Shown here piece after piece: positions 10,921 to 63,850 of a DNA stretch of 64,000 nucleotides (its first letter is position 1; each line of letters starts with the position of its first letter). The DNA is from Octopus vulgaris (lineage: Eukaryota): the NCBI GenBank assembly GCA_951406725.2, contig OX597819.1, positions 43,896,001 through 43,960,000 on the forward strand, in the 5' to 3' direction. A model generated the notes under the pieces. The model ran no database searches and was not told the origin of the DNA. It worked only from the letters and a program-made list of their open reading frames with translations. The translations under genes and the position numbers were made by a program.

Positions 10921-10933
10921 ATTTATTATAATT

Positions 10934-11436
10934 CTTTTCTACTCTAGGCACAAGAGGCTAGTCGATGAGATCGACCCTAGAATGCAACTGGCACTTAATT
11001 TATCGACCCCGAAAATCAAACTCAACCTCGTTGGAATATGAACTCAGAACGTAAAGAAAGACGAAATACCGACAAGGACAGACAAATGGATTAAGTCGAT
11101 TACATCGACCCCAGTGCGTAACTGGTACTTATTTAAACGACCCCGAAAGGATGAAAGGCAAAGTCGACCTCGGCAGAATTTGAACACAGAACGAAACGGC
11201 AGACGAAATACCTTTTTTTTTTTACTACCCACAAGGGGCTAAACACAGAGAGGACAAACAAGGACAAACAAAGGGATTAAGTCGATGATATCGACCCCAG
11301 TGCGTAACTGGTACTTAATTTATCGACACCGAAAGGATGAAAGGCAAAGTCGCCCTCGGTTGAATTTGGACTCAGAACGTAACGGCAGGCGAAATACCGC
11401 TAAGCATTTCGCTAACGTTTCTGCCAGCTCATTGCT
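10934..11436 (-). mobile_element. SINE family B concatemer (three partial units)
   Basis: Repeated core gtcgactttgcctttcatcctttcggggtcg (Nin-domain-like) and B-box gagttcaaatt. Flanked by gatttattataatt (10920-10933) and gatttataataatt (11442-11455). Confidence 0.88.
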
Positions 11437-11843: not shown

Positions 11844-12220
<377 letters not shown>

Positions 12221-15364: not shown

Positions 15365-15371
<7 letters not shown>

Positions 15372-15620
15372 TAAATAATATGGGTGTAAAATTGAATATT
15401 AATTTGATTAATATCAATTTAAAACCAGTGGCCTAGTATACTGAAAAATCTGAAGATTCAGAAATAATATATTTCATAGATATAAGAGGGATGACCACTA
15501 AGAGGATATCCATTATGCTAGAAGAGGACACCTTGAGAACAATTTTTTCTTAGTGGTCAGACCATATGGGGTCTTCTTCTAGCATAATCGATGCCCACTT
15601 CGTGGTGATCCCTCTTATAT
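15365..15620. mobile_element. Fold-back PLE-type terminus, older, in (TA)n
   Basis: Diverged ~53-bp inverted arms (about 15480-15533 and 15568-15620). The unpaired end (accagtggcctag) resembles the 52206 and 63521 elements. Confidence 0.55.
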
Positions 15621-16189: not shown

Positions 16190-17883
16190 TATATATATGC
16201 ATATATTTTATTAACATATTATACGACTAAACGCACGCACCCTATTAAGTAAGATTGTTCTGTTTATCAAGTTCGCCTTGATATTAACTCTCACGCGACT
16301 CTGCATCTTTCTTTCTTTCTCTCCCATTCCCTTTTTCGTCTTTTTTCCCTCACTTAACTTGTCTCTTCCTCTCTCTCTCCCCCTCACTGTTCTTCATGGT
16401 CTCCTCGCACCATTCCCCTTCTTCTCTCTCTTCCTCTTGCTCCTCCTCCCCCATTCCCGTCGTCCATCTGCGACGATACTTCCGTCGTAACTGCTATCCC
16501 GTCCTTTCTCGCCCGCCTTCTAAGGCCACTGGTCGACATCTTCCTCTCTCGTCGTCCACTATAATCCAGCGTTTACAATACTTTTTTCGTCTGGCGTTAA
16601 CAGCCCTTCTTATCTTGTTCTCCTTGTCCTGTCTCTCACTGTTATATATTTATTTTTCCACTGTTTATATATATATTTTTTACTGTTTATATGTTTGTAC
16701 TGTCGTTACCGTCTTGCTTTTTTTACCCCTCTGCGAAAGGATCTCAGAATTTTAATTGATTTGCTTTTCGCAGGAAGGAATTTTTCATTCGAAGTATACG
16801 TCTCGCTTTTATCCTTCGAAACGTTTAGTAGATGAAACTTTAGCGACTGAAGAAGGGGATTTTTCGTTGTGCTTATTGTCCTGTATCTCTCTTTTTTTGC
16901 CTGTCTTGTTCCTTGGTTGTGTCTATGTTTTTCGTCTCTCTATGTGTTCGACGTCTTTTTGGTGTCCTGTACACATATATGCGTGTATATGTACATGTAG
17001 AGGTAGGTACGTACATATATGTTTATATATATGCATATATTTTATTAACATATTATACGACTAAACGCACGCACCCTATTAAGTAAAATTGTTCTGTTTA
17101 TCAAGTTCGCCTTGATATTAACTCTCACGCGACTCTGCATCTTTCTTTCTTTCTTTCTCTCCCATTCCCTTTTTCGTCTTTTTTCCCTCACTTAACTTAT
17201 CTCTTCCTCTCTCTCTCCCCCTCACTGTTCTTCATGGTCTCCTCGCACCATTCCCCTTCTTCTCTCTCTTCCTCTTGCTCCTCCTCCCCATTCCCGTCGT
17301 CCATCTGCGACGATACTTCCGTCGTAACTGCTATCCCGTCCTTTCTCGCCCGCCTTCTAAGGCCACTGGTCGACATCTTCCTCTCTCGTCGTCCACTATA
17401 ATCCAGCGTTTACAATACTTTTTTCGTCTGGCGTTAACAGCCCTTCTTATCTTGTTCTCCTTGTCCTGTCTCTCACTGTTATATATTTATTTTTCCACTG
17501 TTTTTATATATATTTTTTACTGTTTATATGTTTGTACTGTCGTTACCGTCTTGCTTTTTTTACCCCTCTGCGAAAGGATCTCAGAATTTTAATTGATTTG
17601 CTTTTCGCAGGAAGGAATTTTTCATTCGAAGTATACGTCTCGCTTTTATCCTTCGAAACGTTTAGTAGATGAAACTTTAGCGACTGAAGAAGGGGATTTT
17701 TCGTTGTGCTTATTGTCCTGTATCTCTCTTTTTTTGCCTGTCTTGTTCCTTGGTTGTGTCTATGTTTTTCGTCTCTCTATGTGTTCGACGTCTTTTTGGT
17801 GTCCTGTACACATATATGCGTGTATATGTACATGTAGAGGTAGGTACGTACATATATGTTTATATATATGCATATATTTTATT

Positions 17884-36200: not shown

Positions 36201-37019
36201 CACTTGAGAAGCTTATTAAAGATTAATGTAATTAGAGAGTCGAGTAAAAACCAATCTAAGAGTTAATATACAGTTGTATTCCTTTGACAATTGCCTTTTG
36301 ATTAGAGCACTTTCGCTCGGAAGATTTCGTCTAGTCACGTGAACGCCTGAACCCCCCCCCCTCCCTACCGTCTCCCCACCACCACCCCATCCATGAAATT
36401 GTGATATACGCGGAGAAAGTTATGAAAATTCATTATCAATTTTTCAAAACTTTTCTTCCTTCGACTGCCACACCAACTCCAAATTTTCCAACCTACACCG
36501 TATTAGTCGCAAATCTCTCTTCTTTCTACCCAGTCTCTTCCCGCCTTTACCTTATCGATTATCTATGCCCTCTCCTACTCATTTACGTCTACCTAATATT
36601 GATCTCTGATATTGATAGGCGCGAGGTCACATATTTTGGAGAAGAGTAGTGGGGGGTGGATAAAATCAATCACTTAATATCGATCTTTTCAGTGCTTATT
36701 TATTTCTTATTTCATCCACCCCTTGGATAAGTAGACCTTACTAGGATTTGAAACCAGAACGTTTTATTTAACACAAGACAAAATATTTTTTACATAGACA
36801 ACCAACCCAGTCGATTAAATCTCCTCCACTTCATCATCCTTTATTTCATCGACCCCGGTAGTATTAAAGATAAAGAAGGACTTTGTGGGTATCGAACTCA
36901 AAACGTCATTGAATACCATAATGCATGTTAACATTCCATTGTTTCCCCAATCCATCTATCCATCCATCCATCTATCCATCTTTTCTACGTACTATTCCTG
37001 GAAAGGATGTCAGGATATT

Positions 37020-37430
37020 TCTTATTTCTTTATTGCCCACAAGGGGCTAAACATAGAGGAGAGAAACAAGGACAGGTGAAGGGATTACGTCATCGATCCC
37101 AGTGCGTAACTGGTACTCAATTTATCGACCCCGAAAGGATGAAAGGCAAAGTCAACCTCGGCGGAATTTGAACTCAGAACGTAACGGCAGACGAAATACC
37201 TATTTCTTTACTACCCACAATGGGCCAAACACAGAGAGGACAAACAAGGACAGGCAACGGGATTAAGTCGAGTATATCGACACCAGTGCGTAAATGGTAC
37301 TTAATTTATCGTCCCCGAAAGGATGAAAGGCAAAGTCGACCTTGGCAGAATTTGAACTCAGAACGTAACGGCAGACGAAATACCGCCAAGCATTTCGCCC
37401 GGCGTGCTAACGTTTCTGCCAGCTCGCCGT
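37020..37430 (-). mobile_element. SINE family B dimer
   Basis: Complete head at 37430 and recurrent junction at ~37200. Confidence 0.9.
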
Positions 37431-42357: not shown

Positions 42358-42366
<9 letters not shown>

Positions 42367-42652
42367 AGAATATTTTGCGTAATGAGATAAAAAACCAAGG
42401 CTTTGTAGATATTAGAACATTTATAGATAAATCTTATAAATCTATAAATTTTTCTATCTATAAATGTTCTAATATCTACACACCCTTGGGTTTTTTTTAT
42501 CTCATTACGCAAAAAATTCTTATATACACCCGCTGACATATAACCAACGTTGAACCCCTTATTTGTAAAATTACCGAACCTGAAACTTAACTAAGGTCTG
42601 TCTATAGCACCTATTCAGCATTACCTGACACCATTACCTCTAATAACATACA
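42358..42652 (+). mobile_element. Fold-back insert with ~70-bp arms plus unpaired tail
   Basis: 42361-42430 is the inverted copy of 42452-42526; same layout as the other fold-back termini; adjacent to (TA)n. Confidence 0.55.
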
Positions 42653-42655
42653 AAA

Positions 42656-42925
42656 ATGGGACAAGAACGCAAAACAGCCAGACAGTTAGGTGATACAAAA
42701 GAGACAACAAAACATTCAGACAGACGATACAAAGAAAACAAAGCCGGGTCATTCGGAGTTTTCTTTCTTCAGTCGAGTTCCAGATTATCTTTGCAATTTC
42801 GGCTGGTTATAGTGGAGATTGTTCCAATCTCGCCAGCCCCAAGGAAAAACTAAGCTAAGCGCACTAGATTCATTGGAAAAAAGCAGCGAATGTATACGAA
42901 AACAAGGACGGAAAAAAACGGAGAA
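42656..42925 (-). repeat. Fragment resembling the 3' part of the 835-bp tandem unit
   Basis: On -: hairpin ggctgg..ccagcc-GAAA followed about 25 nt later by cgactgaagaa and a T-rich tail, the same order as 16770-16970. Confidence 0.45.
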
Positions 42926-46104: not shown

Positions 46105-48073
<1,969 letters not shown>

Positions 48074-50903: not shown

Positions 50904-51032
50904 CTCGTTTCAGCCATGCGGCCGTGTTCATGCTGGAGCACCACCATAATTGGTGCCGATTAGTTCGAATTTCTCAATAACAACGTTATTGTTGGGATTC
51001 TTGCTGTTCTGCGTGCACCATTTAGTGATTTA

Positions 51033-51089
<57 letters not shown>

Positions 51090-51173
51090 TGGGGCTCCGT
51101 ATACAACATAACCCTGCAATACACATATGCAAAATAGGAGGAATAAAATAAACGAAAACAATGCCTTACCGTT

Positions 51174-51236
51174 AATAGCGAACATGTTTCTGGATCGGAG
51201 GTGAGAAAATGCCTCATGTCTTTCATCAGCGCCATC
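51174..51236 (-). ncRNA. Minimal HHR motif (inverted copy)
   Basis: Reverse complement of 51782-51844. Confidence 0.65.
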
Positions 51237-51781
51237 TTCGTTAGCGTTATCAAATGCCACCAGCCTCCACTTTTGACCAGGCGTCATCAAATAGTGGGGG
51301 GAAAGTGAACATAGGCTAAAGCTATGTAGGCGATTGAATCCGTAAATTCTCCCTCCAAAATTCTACCATGCGCACCACAAGGATAGTCGTTAGGGAGTGA
51401 AAAATCCAATATAATAATAAGGGTAAATAATTTTTTCGATGGTTTTTCAGGCAACCAACAATTATTTACCGGTAGATTTCGGTATGTAAATATGACCTTT
51501 AGCGGTGGGAACTTCTGTGGAGTTCAGTATATATAGAGTTCAGTATATATAGTATATAAGTAGAAGGGCAGGCAACAAAATTATTTACCCTTATTATTAT
51601 ACTACTAATTGGATTTTTCACTCCCTAACGACTACCCTTGTGGTGCGCATGGTAGAATTTTGGAGGGAGAATTTACGGATTCAATCGTCTACATAGCTTT
51701 AGCCTATGTTCACTTTCCCCCCACTATTTGATGACGCCTGGTCAAAAGTGGAGGCTGGTGGCATTTGATAAAGCTAACGAA

Positions 51782-51844
51782 GATGGCGCTGATGAAAGAC
51801 ATGAGGCATTTTCTCACCTCCGATCCAGAAACATGTTCGCTATT
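51782..51844 (+). ncRNA. Minimal type I HHR motif
   Basis: gatggcg-CTGATGA-...-a-GAAA-CATG-TT-cgctatt. Helix I is 7 bp (two G-U), helix III is palindromic ACATGT, GUU site; the base of helix II is non-canonical. Confidence 0.68.
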
Positions 51845-52137
51845 AACGGTAAGGCATTGTTTTCGTTTATTTATTCCTCCTATTTTGCATATGTGTATTG
51901 CAGGGTTGTGTCGTATACAGAGCCCCACTTGTAGAAAATGGAAATAAACAGTCTCTGACTGCTATTTCTAATTCTTTCGGTATGCGGCAAAGCAACTGTT
52001 GCCTGCCCTTCTACTTATATACTATATATACTGAACTCCACAGAAGTTCCCACCGCTAAAGATCATATTTACATACCGAAATCTACCGGTAAATAATTGT
52101 TGGTTGCCTGAAAAACCATCGAAAAAATTATTTACCC

Positions 52138-52205
<68 letters not shown>

Positions 52206-52211
<6 letters not shown>

Positions 52212-52422
52212 TCAATTTAGGTAGTAAAAAATTCGATAGAAATTTATCACTACCAGCGGCCCAGTGGGAAAGAAAAATAGTCATGAGACTAAAATGTAAA
52301 TATATAACAATTTAGGAATGGCCTTAACAGGCCATTCGTCCACTAGACAGAGCAGCCATAACTTGGTTGGAGTTATGGCTGCTCTGTCTAGTGGACGAAT
52401 GGCCTGTTAAGGCCATTCCTAA

Positions 52423-52430
<8 letters not shown>
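52206..52430. mobile_element. Fold-back PLE-type terminus with perfect 57-bp arms in (TA)n
   Basis: 52307-52363 and 52371-52427 are exact inverted repeats around a 7-nt loop. Confidence 0.7.
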
Positions 52431-52492
<62 letters not shown>

Positions 52493-52540
52493 CATATATA
52501 TATACATACATACATATATATACATATATTTATATATATA

Positions 52541-53837
52541 CACGAAGGGTATTCATTAAAGATTTCCTCTAACCTGCTCCTCGTTATTGTAGGAAACGGA
52601 ACCTGAACAGGTATAATCATGCATGTCTCTACATGTCACATTGTGAATTGTAGCTTTCCACTAGAATTCCTTTGTCCCTTACGGATGCTGAAGTGGGCTA
52701 AGTTGTTGAAATGGAGGCAGTTGAATGCAGATCAGTGATCAGGTTCTTATACTTGAAATGTACACCAAAATAAACTTTGGAAGAGATGAAAGACGTTTAT
52801 GGTGACGATGCACGATCATATGACGTAGTCAAGTACAGGCATCGCCAGTTCAAATTTGGTCGTTCTTCAGTAGAAATTTCTCCTATTCCTGGACGACCAC
52901 ATTCCGCCATTGATGACGACACCATCCATAAAGTGGAAGCCGCCACTCTGGAGGATTTGGAGGATAGCCGCCTAACTGTTCGACATATAGCCCAATTAAT
53001 GAAAATAAGTGTAGGGTCCGTGGAAAAAATCATTCACAACCATTTGCTTATGGGGAAGTTGTCCGCGCGATGGATTCCCTGGATGCTCATACGTTTTCTG
53101 AAGCAAGAACGAGTCAATTGCTCTCAAGCCTTTTTGGCAATGTATCAAGAAAACGAGGACTTTTTCGACAGACTTATCACACAGGATAAAACATAGGTCC
53201 ATCACTATGTTCCTCAAAGTCCAGTCGAAGCAATGGAAATATGATAACTCACCATCTCCAAAGAAGGCTCGTGTCCATCCCTCAGCAGGCAAGGTAATGC
53301 TCACAGTTTTTTGGGACCATCGTGGAGTAGTGATGATGGATTTTCTAGCAAAGGGCACCACAATTAACGGGGCATATTATGCTTCTCTGCTGCAAGAACT
53401 GCGGGACGCCATCAAAGCGGAGAAACGTGGCATGCTGACCAAAGGAGTCTGCCTCATCCAAGACAACGCCTCAGTTCACAATGTGTATGCTGCCCAGATG
53501 AAAGCTCACACCTACGGTTATGAAATCCTTCCTCATCCCCTTTACTCTCCCGATCTCACACCATGTGACTTCTACCTCTTTCCAACCATGAAGTCTTTTT
53601 TGAAGGGGAAGCACTTTTCAGATGATGATGAACTTATTTCCGAGGTAAAGACTTGGCACCAGATGCAACCTACCGACTTCTCTATAGACGCGGTCTTCAC
53701 AGCAGCATAAGGCGATGGGAGAAGTGTGTCACCACTGGTGGTGGCTATGCAAAGAAGGACTAATAATTATGTCACGTATCCTTTATCCCGATCCTTTGAA
53801 GTGGGTTAGGGAAAATCTTTAATGAACACCCCTCGTG
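52541..53837 (+). mobile_element. Full-length mariner element, decayed
   Basis: TIRs cacgaagggtattcattaaagatttcctctaacc / ggttagggaaaatctttaatgaacacccctcgtg; about 1.3 kb. Confidence 0.95.
52711..53763 (+). pseudogene. mariner DD34D transposase (irritans-like), disrupted
   Basis: RSVIRFLYLK, ARWIP, ITQDKT, SAGKVMLTVFWD, QDNA, YSPDLTPCDF (34 residues between D and D); stops and frameshifts. Confidence 0.95.
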
Positions 53838-53839
53838 TG

Positions 53840-53895
<56 letters not shown>

Positions 53896-55349: not shown

Positions 55350-56921
55350 GTGTGTGTGCGTATGTATGCACGCATGAAATATATACAGACATACATAATC
55401 ACACATAAGGTTATTCCTGTATTTATTTTTTTTTTTCATCAATTTCTGAAGAATTTCTTTGGCAAACTTTACAATAGTCCATACGCCTATTTCTCTCGAT
55501 ATCTTTGAATATAATGTTGTTGTTGCTGTTGTAATTATTGTTGTTGTTAACACCTTCTTCTTCTTCTTCTTCTTCTTCTTCTTCTTCTTCTTCTTCTTCT
55601 TCTTCTTCTTCTTCTTCTTCTTCTTCTTCTTCTTCTTCTTCTTCTTCTTCTTCTTCACCGTTTCTTAGTCTTTTGTCTCATAATCAGGCTTGTTACTCCC
55701 GCTACTATTTGCTACTCTTTCCAACTAAATCCATTACATTGTCTCCTCCTCCTCCTCCTCCTCCTCCTCCTCCTCCTCATCATCATCATCATCATCACCA
55801 CCACCACCACCACTGTACTCACACCAACTCGGATCCGGAATAGTATTACCTGTTAGTTTCCCAGCTAAGGGTTATCTACCATGTGAATCACTGGGAATGA
55901 AGAACTCCTAGTTTATGTTAGAACTTCTTTTTAGGGGAAGGTAAACTCGTTTAAAGAAAAGCGTAAGTGCGGTCGGTTTCGGATCGTCTCAATCTTTGTT
56001 GTGTTTTAGGGGCTAGAACTGATTGTGCCGAAAAGTGTGTTCAGTACTCTGCAACACTTTATCCACTCAAAACAAATTTACGCACAGGAACTCTTTGGAT
56101 CCTGGGAACCTTTGCATGGACTTATAAATTTAGGAAATGGTCTTACTCTGTCACAAGTTAACTTGCACCATGCATGTATGCATGGATGGGTGGGTGGATG
56201 GATGGATGAATAGGATGTTGGGTGGAACGATGGATGTGTGGTAGTTATTTCCCTCCAGATGCGTAGGTAATCACCTTGTGGAGGGTGTATTCACACCTTA
56301 TAAGTACTTAATTATCGATGTTTGAAATGTCTTGCCTTTAAGTCTGAAGTTAGCATTTGTAATGAGATTCCAGTATTTGAAGAAATTTAGGTCGTAATTA
56401 ATTTATTGAGGATTATTCAGATCAAAAATTTGTTGGAAGTGTAGAGTTTGGAATTGGTGTTGTTTCAATGTAAAGAGTATTCATTGTTTTAACTTTGATA
56501 TAAATAGAATCTTTGTTTTGATCCAAAGTTTAAAAAATAGAGCCGCCAATGAAAGAAACGTGTGAGGTCTGTATTGAAGGTGGCTGTGTATTTTAGTGGT
56601 GGTGAAATTGCGTGTGAACAATGTCCGCGGGAAAGAATATTTGAGCAGTGTTAGATTGCATCTCGGGCATCGAAAAGTGAACAAATCTGCATGAAAAAAG
56701 ATTTCAGTATTATTAGATTGTGACTTCAGCATCGAAATGTGGATTATTTAAATTTTCAGCTATTGGGAGATTTTACTAAAGCTCTGAAGCTCTCTCGTCT
56801 TGATAGAAAAAGGAATTTGCAAACGCTTGTTAAACGCAGAAAGAACGAAACTACTGGAATATTCAGATGAATGTTAATATAAAAAAACTCTAAACGACGT
56901 ATATATGAACAGCGTTTTATT

Positions 56922-57732
56922 CTTTTCTACACCAGGTACAAGGCCCGAAATTTTTAGATCGACCCCAGTACGTAGCTGGTACTTAATTTATCGACCCCAA
57001 AAAGATGAAAGGCAAAGTCGACTTCGGTGGAATTTGAACTCAGAACGTAAAGATAGATGAATTACCGCCAAGCATTTCGCCCGGCGCGCTAACGTTTCTT
57101 ATTTCTTTACTGCCCACAAGGGGCTATACACACAGGGGACAAACAAGGACAGACAAACGGATTAAGTCGATTATATCGACCCCAATGCGTAACTGGTACT
57201 TATTTAAATCGACCCCGAAAGGATGAAAGGCAAAGTCGACCTCGGCGGAATTTGAACTCAGAACGTAGCGGCAGACGAAATACCTATTTCTTTACTACCC
57301 ACAAGGGGCTAAATACAGAGAGGACAAACAAGGAAGAGACAAACGGATTAAGTAGATTATATCGACCCCAGTATAACTGGTACTTAATTTATCGACCCCG
57401 AAAGGATGAAAGGCAAAGTTGGCCTCAGCCGAATTTGAACTCAAAACGTAGCGGCAGACGAAATACCGCTAAGCATTTCGCCCGGCGTGCTAACGTTTCT
57501 TATTTCTTTATTGCCCACAAGGAGCTACACACAGAGGGGACAGACAAGGACAGACAAAGGGATTAAGTCGATTATATCGACCCCAATGCATAACTGGTAC
57601 TTATTTAATCAACCCCGAAAGGATGAAAGGCAAAGTTGACCTCGGCGGAATTTGAACTCAGAACGTAGCGGCAGACGAAATACCGCTAAGCATTTCGCCC
57701 GTCATGCTAACGTTTCTGCCAGCTCGACATTT
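56922..57732 (-). mobile_element. SINE family B tetramer flanked by one 18-bp target-site duplication
   Basis: Four cores; flanks tatgaacagcgttttatt (56904-56921) and tatgagcagcgttttatt (57733-57750). Confidence 0.92.
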
Positions 57733-58520
57733 TATGAGCAGCGTTTTATTGCTAATTAAAAATGTTAATAATAAATATAGTTTTGGAAAATACCAATTAC
57801 AAAATTTACAATCAGTTCAATATCATATTGTATATATAGATATAAACTTGGATCTATAATTCGGAGAAAGATTATCGACACGGAATTGTAGATAAAATAT
57901 TTCGATATATCTTAGATGTAACTATGACATCTCATTTTGTCCTGGAGAAGAAGTTTCAAGTTGATCAGCCAGTAGTCGTTAGTTTTTGCACTCTGTTTCT
58001 TTTTATCTTCGACTTTTTCGTTCGATACATCACTCTATATCCGCCCCTCCTTATCTTTGGTTAGATGTTAAATACTTTCGTTCTAGCTTCGGATAGATGA
58101 ATCGATAACCGATAGAAAGAACACGGAAATGGCAACCAAGTTGCTTTTTGATAATATTTTCCTGTCGTATCCCAAGCTAGCCCACCTCCCAATACATGTA
58201 CTTCCACCCTCCTCCGTACCAACACCAACGCCAACACCAACACCAACTCCAATACTAACACCAAAACTTCGATATTGCCCGAATGATCGATGTATCTCAT
58301 TTCAAGTTGGATATTTAATGCCTAACTTTCGTAAATCTTTAGTCGTATGTTCTATCATCTTCCATGTGTTGCGCCATTAATAAGATCTTCAGAGATCGCA
58401 AGGGAATTAAAGAATGTTCTTCAAGTCCCAAGCTGCTTATTATGACTTCATATCGAATACGATCTTCAACAGATCTTCTCCCTATCAATAATAATGATGA
58501 TGATAATAATAATAATAATA

Positions 58521-63520: not shown

Positions 63521-63850
63521 ATTATAATTTAAGCCATCTAAGAGATACCGCAACGCCGGAACTAGCAGCCAAAACCTGACTAAAAAATCACATTACATGT
63601 TCATACAGCTCCAGGAGATAAGACAAAAAGACAAAATAAACTGCGCAAAAATTACTAGATAATTCCAGATCCCGGATTTCTGGCTTTGCATAAGAAATGC
63701 TTTGCCTCTTCAGGTTTTGGCTGCTATTTCCAGCGTGGCGGTATCTCTTAGATACCCTAAATCATAATTTTAATAATAATTATTACCTTTGCAGGTTTTT
63801 ATTTCCATGCTGGCCACTTGACAAGATTGATATTTGAATTAACGATCTTA

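What the first reader, a model, noticed from the sequence alone, without database searches (positions are those of the whole stretch)
51087..52150. ~547-nt hammerhead-bearing unit inserted as a direct copy plus an inverted, circularly permuted copy (candidate cephalopod retrozyme)
Seen: the + copy reads R-X-Y-Z-R (R = aaaattatttacccttattattat; X to 51930, Y 51931-51996, Z 51997-52148). The - copy reads Z-R-X, crossing the end-to-start junction of the unit. X holds an HHR (51782-51844), Z ends in an 11-bp hairpin (ggtaaataatt/aattatttacc), there is no credible ORF, and the copies differ little. Known: PLEs generate inverted and partial-tandem pseudo-LTRs with minimal HHRs, and metazoan non-LTR retrozymes are non-coding HHR repeats that give circular RNAs. 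Inference: the template was a circular or multimeric RNA copied by a PLE RT into a (TA)n site.
Basis: partly seen in the sequence, partly recalled or inferred. Interest (0 to 1): 0.82.

Follow-up and report, generated by a model that had tools for sequence, protein, structure and literature searches.

The report
Hammerhead retrozyme with Penelope-style inverted insertion
This 1-kb stretch holds two back-to-back copies of a 547-base non-coding repeat with a hammerhead motif predicted to cut RNA only weakly, likely pasted into a TA run by a Penelope-type retrotransposon enzyme; it is a new member of a kind already known in animals, and a circular RNA template is possible but not required.

Summary
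The anatomy is real: a direct arm (51577-52147, one 547-nt unit plus 24 nt) and an inverted arm (51577-51087) that crosses the unit's end-to-start junction, between (TA)n runs, with no ORF. The arms differ by 8 substitutions and 3 indels, so this is no fold-back chimera. The unit is a multi-copy family in public runs, where single contigs cross the same junction (2 of 4 runs). It folds strongly on the + strand only (z -5.6 vs -1.2). The hammerhead has intact core boxes, stem I and a palindromic stem III, but a poor stem II; Rfam misses it and cleavage is untested. The head-to-head layout in (TA)n is the published footprint of Penelope-like elements, and animal retrozymes are already proposed to be their non-autonomous derivatives. 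The scan has noted like families before, in this genome and others. Verdict: new member of a known kind; modest interest.

The parts
51036..51086 (.). Left (TA)n target run; the inverted arm abuts it with 0 nt gap. About 3 nt of TA microhomology with template positions 51931-51933.
51087..51577 (-). Inverted arm: Z (from unit position 51997) - R - X (to 51930). Lacks Y; carries a 16-nt duplication in Z and lacks the 7-nt spacer after R.
   Evidence: many contigs stop at the 16-nt duplication (table 8)
51174..51236 (-). Hammerhead copy in the inverted arm, identical to the + copy
51411..51434 (-). R inside the inverted arm: the unit's end-to-start junction (Z-R-X)
   Evidence: same junction in single contigs of runs X2 and X7 (tables 5 and 5c)
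51577..51577 (.). Head-to-head inversion junction. One shared A; the inverted arm stops at the apex of a short palindrome of the unit (51991-52001).
   Evidence: no listed contig bridges it
51577..52147 (+). Direct arm R-X-Y-Z-R: one 547-nt unit (39.9% G+C) plus 24 nt
51627..51912 (+). Predicted long self-paired rod of X with the hammerhead near its tip (z -4.8 on +, -0.56 on -)
51782..51844 (+). Type I hammerhead motif: 7-bp stem I, CUGAUGA 51789-51795, GAAA 51828-51831, palindromic stem III (ACAUGU), predicted cut after GUU 51837, weak helix II without a closing pair
   Evidence: family variants
51931..52123 (+). Y-Z segment between the two arm ends; structured (z -5.0 on +, -4.3 on - for 51930-52147), with an exact 10-bp helix 51975-51984 / 52072-52081
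52088..52136 (+). 11-bp hairpin whose 3' arm is the start of R; the arm is largely kept in a diverged relative whose loop differs
   Evidence: table 5c
52124..52208 (+). Right end: R, a (TTA)n run, then the right (TA)n target; other copies also end at R into (TA)n
   Evidence: table 7

Best explanation
This is one insertion of a multi-copy, ORF-less 547-nt hammerhead-bearing repeat, likely a non-autonomous Penelope-dependent element (non-LTR retrozyme type), likely copied in trans by a PLE reverse transcriptase/endonuclease that would have primed at both sides of one break in a (TA)n run. Shown: the two-arm layout, the closed unit order, the lack of coding sequence, relatives in public runs, and a recurring right end at R. 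Inferred: one cDNA began at R, using its TTA repeats to pair with the target, and ran 571 nt (a full unit plus 24). The other began 217 nt earlier in the unit (51930) on about 3 nt of microhomology and ran about 480 nt. The two were joined head to head at 51577. The template was + strand RNA that was continuous across both the unit junction and the ribozyme site: an uncleaved multimer or a re-ligated circle (about 60:40; the DNA cannot decide). The ribozyme probably cuts slowly and only as a dimer through its palindromic stem III. The arms then drifted apart by about 1.6%.
For: Anatomy. Family: 285, 498, 346 and 69 contigs of runs X1, X2, X7, X10 lie on the unit, mostly 90-99% alike, covering 30 of 30 bins in each. 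Closed order: one contig each in X2 and X7 (2 of 4 runs) joins Z (52105) to R-X (51594) through 34-35 diverged letters; X-Y and Y-Z are bridged by other contigs; R-X read-through appears in X1, X2, X7, X9. Recurrent end: 3 contigs of X1 go from R into (TA)n. RNA-level selection: circular fold z -5.63 on + (0 of 40 shuffles as good) against -1.21 on - (4 of 40); 23 of 40 listed variants fall at unpaired sites where 14.6 are expected (p 0.005, sites not independent). Hammerhead variants are of the tolerated kind: N7 U>A, the G.U pair of stem I turned to A-U or G-C, +AU that keeps the stem III palindrome; none of the 40 listed variants (of 50) hits an invariant core base (unphased). One source: both arms share letters at 51709 and 51918 that all four runs read otherwise. 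Literature: inverted 5'-truncated copy, partial tandem and tail, and (TA)n bias (PMC8557442); 26 of 27 Hydra-clade PLEs list (TA)n, one from an octopus, and U17 sites and unpaired 10.1/11.1 positions occur in their hammerheads (supplement). Three other fold-backs in the window also have one arm running about 100 nt further before (TA)n.
Against: No autonomous partner was identified: no RT in the element, and four motifs of the unit found no relevant match in the PLE consensus files of PMC8557442. Helix II is poor in both arms, and the MFE fold of the unit does not form the ribozyme. Rfam does not score it. Variants at paired sites keep pairing in only 9 of 17 cases against 7.3 expected, so the rod gets no covariation support. 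The locus has only one hammerhead per strand, so it fails the 'two consecutive units' test for an active retrozyme. The 217-nt offset between the two ends is far longer than the published 30-40 nt tail. A fixed end at 51930 was not seen in the 24 of 159 loose-end rows shown. The closed path is pieced from short contigs of different copies. The shared letters may mark a species-specific subfamily and not one template.
Confidence: 0.72

Rival explanations
1. The locus is a stump of an autonomous PLE. X-Y-Z-R is the ribozyme-bearing terminal region (pLTR plus tail) of a coding element, and the Z-R-X junction comes from partial-tandem insertion of truncated copies, not from a self-standing unit.
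For: The layout equals that of published PLE insertions. The distance from hammerhead to the 51930 end (168 nt by the table's convention) lies in the range of roughly 100-210 nt for most Hydra-clade 3' ends (my reading). Only 24 of 159 and 24 of 58 loose-end rows were visible, so a branch into an ORF is not excluded.
Against: Random truncation would not put the same end-to-start junction into relatives whose loop has diverged (X2, X7) and into R-X contigs of four runs. The unit is non-coding throughout. Only 0-2 in 100 of laid contigs in the DNA-type runs run on unlike for 20 or more letters, though short contigs limit this test.
Confidence: 0.15
2. A dead or decorative hammerhead. The unit moves as a plain non-autonomous PLE derivative from read-through multimers, and the ribozyme no longer cleaves, so no monomer or circle is made. 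This is compatible with the best explanation in everything but RNA processing.
For: No closing pair in helix II, best segment fold -3.7 kcal/mol. No variant that restores it among those listed. In vitro, 8 of 9 predicted Xenopus retrozyme dimers did not cleave, and PLE minimal hammerheads cleave weakly.
Against: Core boxes show no listed variant, while N7, stem I and stem III vary in tolerated ways. Two other hammerhead motifs in the window also lack a standard 10.1/11.1 pair, as do many published Hydra-clade motifs.
Confidence: 0.3
3. A SINE-like passenger of a LINE (RTE, Dong-R4, CR1): a 3' stem-loop plus (TTA)n tail, inserted with an L1-type twin-priming inversion.
For: An 11-bp hairpin followed by (TTA)n at the right end. 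Such 3' ends and twin priming are LINE features (recalled). These LINE groups are recently active in Octopus vulgaris.
Against: The unit is closed end to start and carries a type I hammerhead with a palindromic stem III, a PLE/retrozyme trait. The arms overlap by about 350 nt instead of abutting.
Confidence: 0.05
4. The inversion is an assembly or library fold-back artefact.
For: No listed contig bridges 51577 (32 of 391 pieces shown, and the window's own individual may not be among the runs).
Against: The arms differ by 8 substitutions and 3 indels, each arm holding the family letter at some sites. They are staggered and of unlike content. A fold-back chimera would give identical arms.
Confidence: 0.03

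Closest known systems
Metazoan non-LTR retrozymes (Cervera and de la Pena 2020, PMC7229834, parts 2-3 of 6 read; Li, Clavereau and Pollet 2026, bioRxiv 10.64898/2026.07.22.740005, parts 1-3 of 5 read)
   Same: Non-coding, low-GC unit with a type I hammerhead and short palindromic helix III; predicted self-paired circle; dispersed monomers; proposed PLE origin; 547 nt is inside the 51-972 bp range of Li et al.
   Different: No tandem of two hammerheads at this locus; longer than the 170-400 nt expressed circles; weak helix II; no RNA or cleavage data; head-to-head two-arm insertion not described in the parts read.
Insertions of endonuclease-bearing Penelope-like elements, especially the Hydra clade, e.g. 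Hydra-1_Obim (Craig et al. 2021, PMC8557442, passages and supplement parts 2 and 52; Arkhipova et al. 2013, PMC3846280, passages)
   Same: Inverted 5'-truncated copy head to head with a direct copy, unequal ends, (TA)n target, hammerhead near the end, often with U17 and an unpaired 10.1/11.1 position.
   Different: No RT/GIY-YIG ORF; closed 547-nt unit; end offset 217 nt against a 30-40 nt tail; no sequence match found with four short motifs.
PLE minimal hammerheads (Cervera and de la Pena 2014, PMC4209133, parts 1-2 of 4 read)
   Same: Palindromic positions around loop 3, predicted dimer activity, pairs of motifs 100-700 bp apart on opposite strands (here about 550 bp).
   Different: Lacks the conserved G10.1-C11.1 pair and the 7-8 bp helix II; stem I is 7 bp rather than 4-5.
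Non-autonomous Chlamys PLEs such as MRC1 (PMC8557442, passage)
   Same: ORF-less PLE passenger forming pLTRs and head-to-tail copies.
   Different: Algal; Chlamys mostly lack canonical hammerheads; those elements share 3' sequence with a known autonomous family, which is unidentified here.

Membership tests
Metazoan non-LTR retrozyme | Type I hammerhead in the unit | tested here: inconclusive
   Core boxes, stem I and palindromic stem III present and beyond chance; helix II lacks a closing pair and Rfam gives no hit
Metazoan non-LTR retrozyme | No protein-coding capacity | tested here: met
   Longest frame in the unit 92 aa; 0 of 6 frames hit Pfam
Metazoan non-LTR retrozyme | Unit joined head to tail | tested here: met
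   Z-R-X in the inverted arm; same joint in single contigs of 2 of 4 runs
Metazoan non-LTR retrozyme | [quoted passage not shown] | tested here: not met
   One hammerhead per strand at this locus; the locus counts as a monomer-type copy. Arrays elsewhere could not be tested, as no genome is held
Metazoan non-LTR retrozyme | Low G+C and highly self-paired predicted circle | tested here: met
   39.9% G+C; 64% paired; z -5.63 on +
Metazoan non-LTR retrozyme | Expressed as linear and circular monomer RNA | not testable with these tools
   Only contigs were served; no raw RNA reads
Metazoan non-LTR retrozyme | Self-cleavage in vitro | not testable with these tools
   Needs a bench assay
Autonomous EN+ Penelope-like element | ORF with RT and GIY-YIG endonuclease | tested here: not met
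   None in the element
PLE-type insertion | Inverted 5'-truncated copy head to head with a direct copy | tested here: met
   described
PLE-type insertion | (TA)n target | tested here: met
   Both flanks; R into (TA)n in 3 other contigs
PLE-type insertion | 30-40 nt tail at one end only | tested here: not met
   The two ends differ by 217 nt of the unit
PLE-type insertion | End sequences shared with a resident autonomous PLE | tested here: inconclusive
   Four 9-12 nt motifs searched in the PMC8557442 supplement: three absent; one 9-mer with 3 hits, the 2 shown lying in unrelated sequence. No genome-wide search possible
Non-circularly permuted hammerheads (earlier scan notes; PMC10085705, listing only) | Core strands in non-standard order | tested here: not met
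   Order here is the standard type I: stem I, CUGAUGA, spacer, GAAA, stem III, UH, stem I

The most novel reading that the evidence does not exclude
A 547-nt covalently closed RNA with an atypical hammerhead (no canonical helix II) is the true mobile form. A PLE enzyme primes on it at two fixed sites 217 nt apart from both sides of one break in (TA)n, one cDNA running past a full turn. That would be direct evidence for rolling-circle, twin-primed PLE integration, with the Y-Z domain between the two sites acting as the enzyme-binding element.
Probability: 0.25. Interest if true: 0.6.

Novelty: new member of a known kind. Interest (0 to 1): 0.3.

Why it matters
How PLEs make tandem and inverted insertions, and whether their hammerheads produce circular templates, is open: PMC4209133 proposes circles, PMC3846280 proposes self-priming on an antisense template, and PMC8557442 calls for an in vitro system. 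A short non-coding unit with two staggered arm ends is a handy substrate for that question, and I found no paper on cephalopod retrozymes. But this single, slightly aged, monomer-type locus does not decide between circle and multimer, and the scan's notes describe younger multi-unit arrays of the same kind that would test it better.

Tried and rejected
No whole genome is held, so copy ends could not be mapped. Rfam: 0 matches at gathering in the window; no hammerhead among 38 matches up to E=10 at 51000-52500. Pattern scans: 0 hits in viral contigs; 5 metagenome hits were chance 21-mers without further homology. Run search: no RNA holder listed. Run X10 (RNA is only a guess) covers all 30 bins, which does not show transcription. 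Contig depths were not used as copy numbers. The inversion junction was not bridged by any listed contig, which is uninformative. Covariation test of the rod with unphased variants: 9 of 17 against 7.3 expected, no support. The scan's index holds no look-alike of this sequence. Motif search in the PLE supplement found no partner; the 3' end of the Hydra-1_Obim sequence lay beyond the part read. Lunse et al. 2016 on PLE hammerhead variants is not held; I saw only a review's passages (PMC6765202), so an A.A-closed variant may be described there. The supplement of PMC13282606 was listed but not read, and the bioRxiv supplements are closed; either could hold this family. A rewired (non-circularly permuted) hammerhead was considered because of the poor helix II and rejected on strand order. 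A satellite-DNA origin was rejected: the locus is a single two-arm insertion in (TA)n.

Full report
Observation. The element lies between two (TA)n runs. Self-alignment gives a direct arm 51577-52147 in which a 24-nt segment R occurs at 51577 and 52124, so the unit is 547 nt. The inverted arm, read from 51577 down to 51087, matches Z from 51997, then R, then X up to 51930. The arms differ by 8 substitutions in about 500 nt (one at the very edge) and by indels of 7, 1 and 16 nt. No other copy is in the window. The longest stop-to-stop frame in the unit is 92 aa, and none of 6 element frames hits Pfam.

The hammerhead. My type I descriptor found exactly 2 hits in both strands of 64 kb, the two arms; 3 of 5000 shuffled units gave a hit. 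Stem I has 7 pairs and stem III is the palindrome ACAUGU with a GUU site ending at 51837. Helix II is poor: A.A and A.C sit below the core, the 32-nt segment folds to only -3.7 kcal/mol, and the free fold does not form the ribozyme. Rfam does not report it. Variants in relatives look tolerated: N7 U>A, the stem I G.U pair changed to A-U or to G-C, an AU insertion that keeps the stem III palindrome, and no change at an invariant core base among the 40 of 50 rows shown (unphased). Published Hydra-clade PLE hammerheads often have U17 and U.U at 10.1/11.1, and one other PLE has C.A there (supplement of PMC8557442); two other motifs in this window also lack a standard pair at that place. I read it as a maintained but probably slow, dimer-dependent ribozyme; activity is untested.

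The unit as RNA. Folded as a circle, the + strand scores z -5.63 (0 of 40 shuffles as stable) and the - strand -1.21 (4 of 40). The X rod alone gives -4.8 against -0.56. Of 40 listed variants 23 are unpaired where 14.6 are expected (p 0.005, sites clustered). Variants at paired sites keep pairing no more than expected (9 of 17 against 7.3). So selection on a + strand RNA is likely, but the exact rod is not confirmed.

The family. Twenty of 24 listed runs, under four coded organism labels and 9 studies, hold part of the unit; none holds half of its words. Laid on the unit, four runs gave 285, 498, 346 and 69 contigs covering all 30 bins. One contig each in X2 and X7 joins Z (52105) to R-X (51594) through 34-35 diverged letters that largely keep the hairpin arm; other contigs bridge X-Y and Y-Z. 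Laid on the native junction of the inverted arm, contigs of X1, X2, X7 and X9 read between R and X, and contigs of three runs continue from Z into Y. The unit order is therefore closed at family level, though pieced from short contigs of different copies. Three contigs of X1 instead go from R into (TA)n, so R is a recurring end. A matching recurring end at 51930 was not visible in the 24 of 159 loose-end rows shown. No listed contig bridges the inversion junction, but unequal, diverged arms argue against a chimera. Both arms share letters at 51709 and 51918 that all four runs read otherwise, while the inverted arm alone holds the family letter at 51908, 51919 and 52062. That fits one source and later drift. 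With the calibration quoted in PMC13282606 (distance 0.09 = 25 million years), 0.8% per arm is roughly 2 million years, if the host is an octopus; that label is recalled and taken from earlier notes, not tested.

Mechanism. Neither outer end nor the inner junction lies at the cleavage site, and both arms cross it, so a cut linear monomer is excluded as template (shown from the sequence). The right arm ends in TTA repeats that can pair with the target; the left arm ends on about 3 nt of microhomology. The simplest reading is two target-primed cDNAs from the two sides of one break, starting 217 nt apart on + strand RNA and joined head to head (inferred). A 547-nt circle would serve. So would a linear RNA of Z-R-X-Y-Z-R (about 700 nt) read twice, or about 2.3 units read once. 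With a weak ribozyme the multimer is at least as likely. The two-fixed-end reading came to me from earlier scan notes. Here I confirmed one recurring end, and found three other fold-backs in the window whose one arm runs 99, 100 and 113 nt further before (TA)n.

Comparison with what is known. PMC8557442 (passages) describes PLE insertions as partial tandems with an adjacent inverted 5'-truncated copy, a 30-40 nt tail and microsatellite bias. Its supplement lists (TA)n for 26 of 27 Hydra-clade families, including one from Octopus bimaculoides. PMC3846280 (passages) shows the same head-to-head layout and trans-mobilisation by pLTR sequences. PMC4209133 (parts 1-2 of 4) reports opposite-strand minimal hammerheads 100-700 bp apart and proposes circles as templates. 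PMC7229834 (parts 2-3 of 6) defines non-LTR retrozymes and shows circles in coral, mussel and axolotl. bioRxiv 10.64898/2026.07.22.740005 (parts 1-3 of 5) argues that they are non-autonomous PLE derivatives and found cleavage in 1 of 9 dimers. The element works like a PLE-mobilised retrozyme. As a member it meets non-coding, closed unit, low G+C and self-pairing; it fails the two-unit array criterion at this locus; expression and cleavage are untested. It is not an autonomous PLE. Searches for a cephalopod retrozyme or a PLE twin-priming paper (listings only) returned none, but subscription papers and Repbase are outside the library.

Verdict. Real, coherent and largely explained by known classes: a new family of a known kind. 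The scan's notes describe at least ten similar families or loci in this and other genomes, none with this sequence. What remains open, circle against multimer and two fixed priming sites, is interesting but is better tested on genome-wide or multi-unit data. Interest 0.3.

Noticed in passing
window 11948-12218, 15367-15620, 52208-52426: Three short fold-backs beside TA-rich runs, each with one arm running 99-113 nt further before (TA)n; the first holds a palindromic hammerhead 3' half. Probably PLE-type head-to-head stumps of other families.
   Followed up: partly
window 42358-42700: A further 170-nt fold-back abutting (TA)n on the left, with a long extension on the right.
   Followed up: no
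window 18361 (-) and 63713 (-): Two more hammerhead-like motifs with palindromic stem III and no standard 10.1/11.1 pair; the one at 63713 lies in a 61-bp inverted repeat and has no stem I adjacent to the core.
   Followed up: partly
window 51975-51984 and 52072-52081: An exact 10-bp helix between Y and Z; its two strands fall in the bins with the highest summed contig depth in all four runs (depth is not a copy number). Loose ends at 51959 and 51992 in X2 suggest another repeat shares this 33-nt stretch.
   Followed up: no
window 51929-51972: Relatives in runs X1 and X7 carry a local 44-nt go-back here, right at the left arm's end position (table 5); unexplained.
   Followed up: no
window 46149-47751: Element with 214-bp terminal inverted repeats (94% alike) in (TA)n, Tc1-like by eye; its frames were not scanned.
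   Followed up: no
window 52540-53840: Decayed mariner transposase next to the element (PF01359, E 5e-21).
   Followed up: partly
window 16224-16968 and 17058-17805: Near-identical direct duplication about 835 nt apart; recent duplication or assembly effect.
   Followed up: no
window 10931-11430, 37018-37428, 56919-57735 and others: A SINE-like family of about 185-215 nt that often sits in head-to-tail runs.
   Followed up: no
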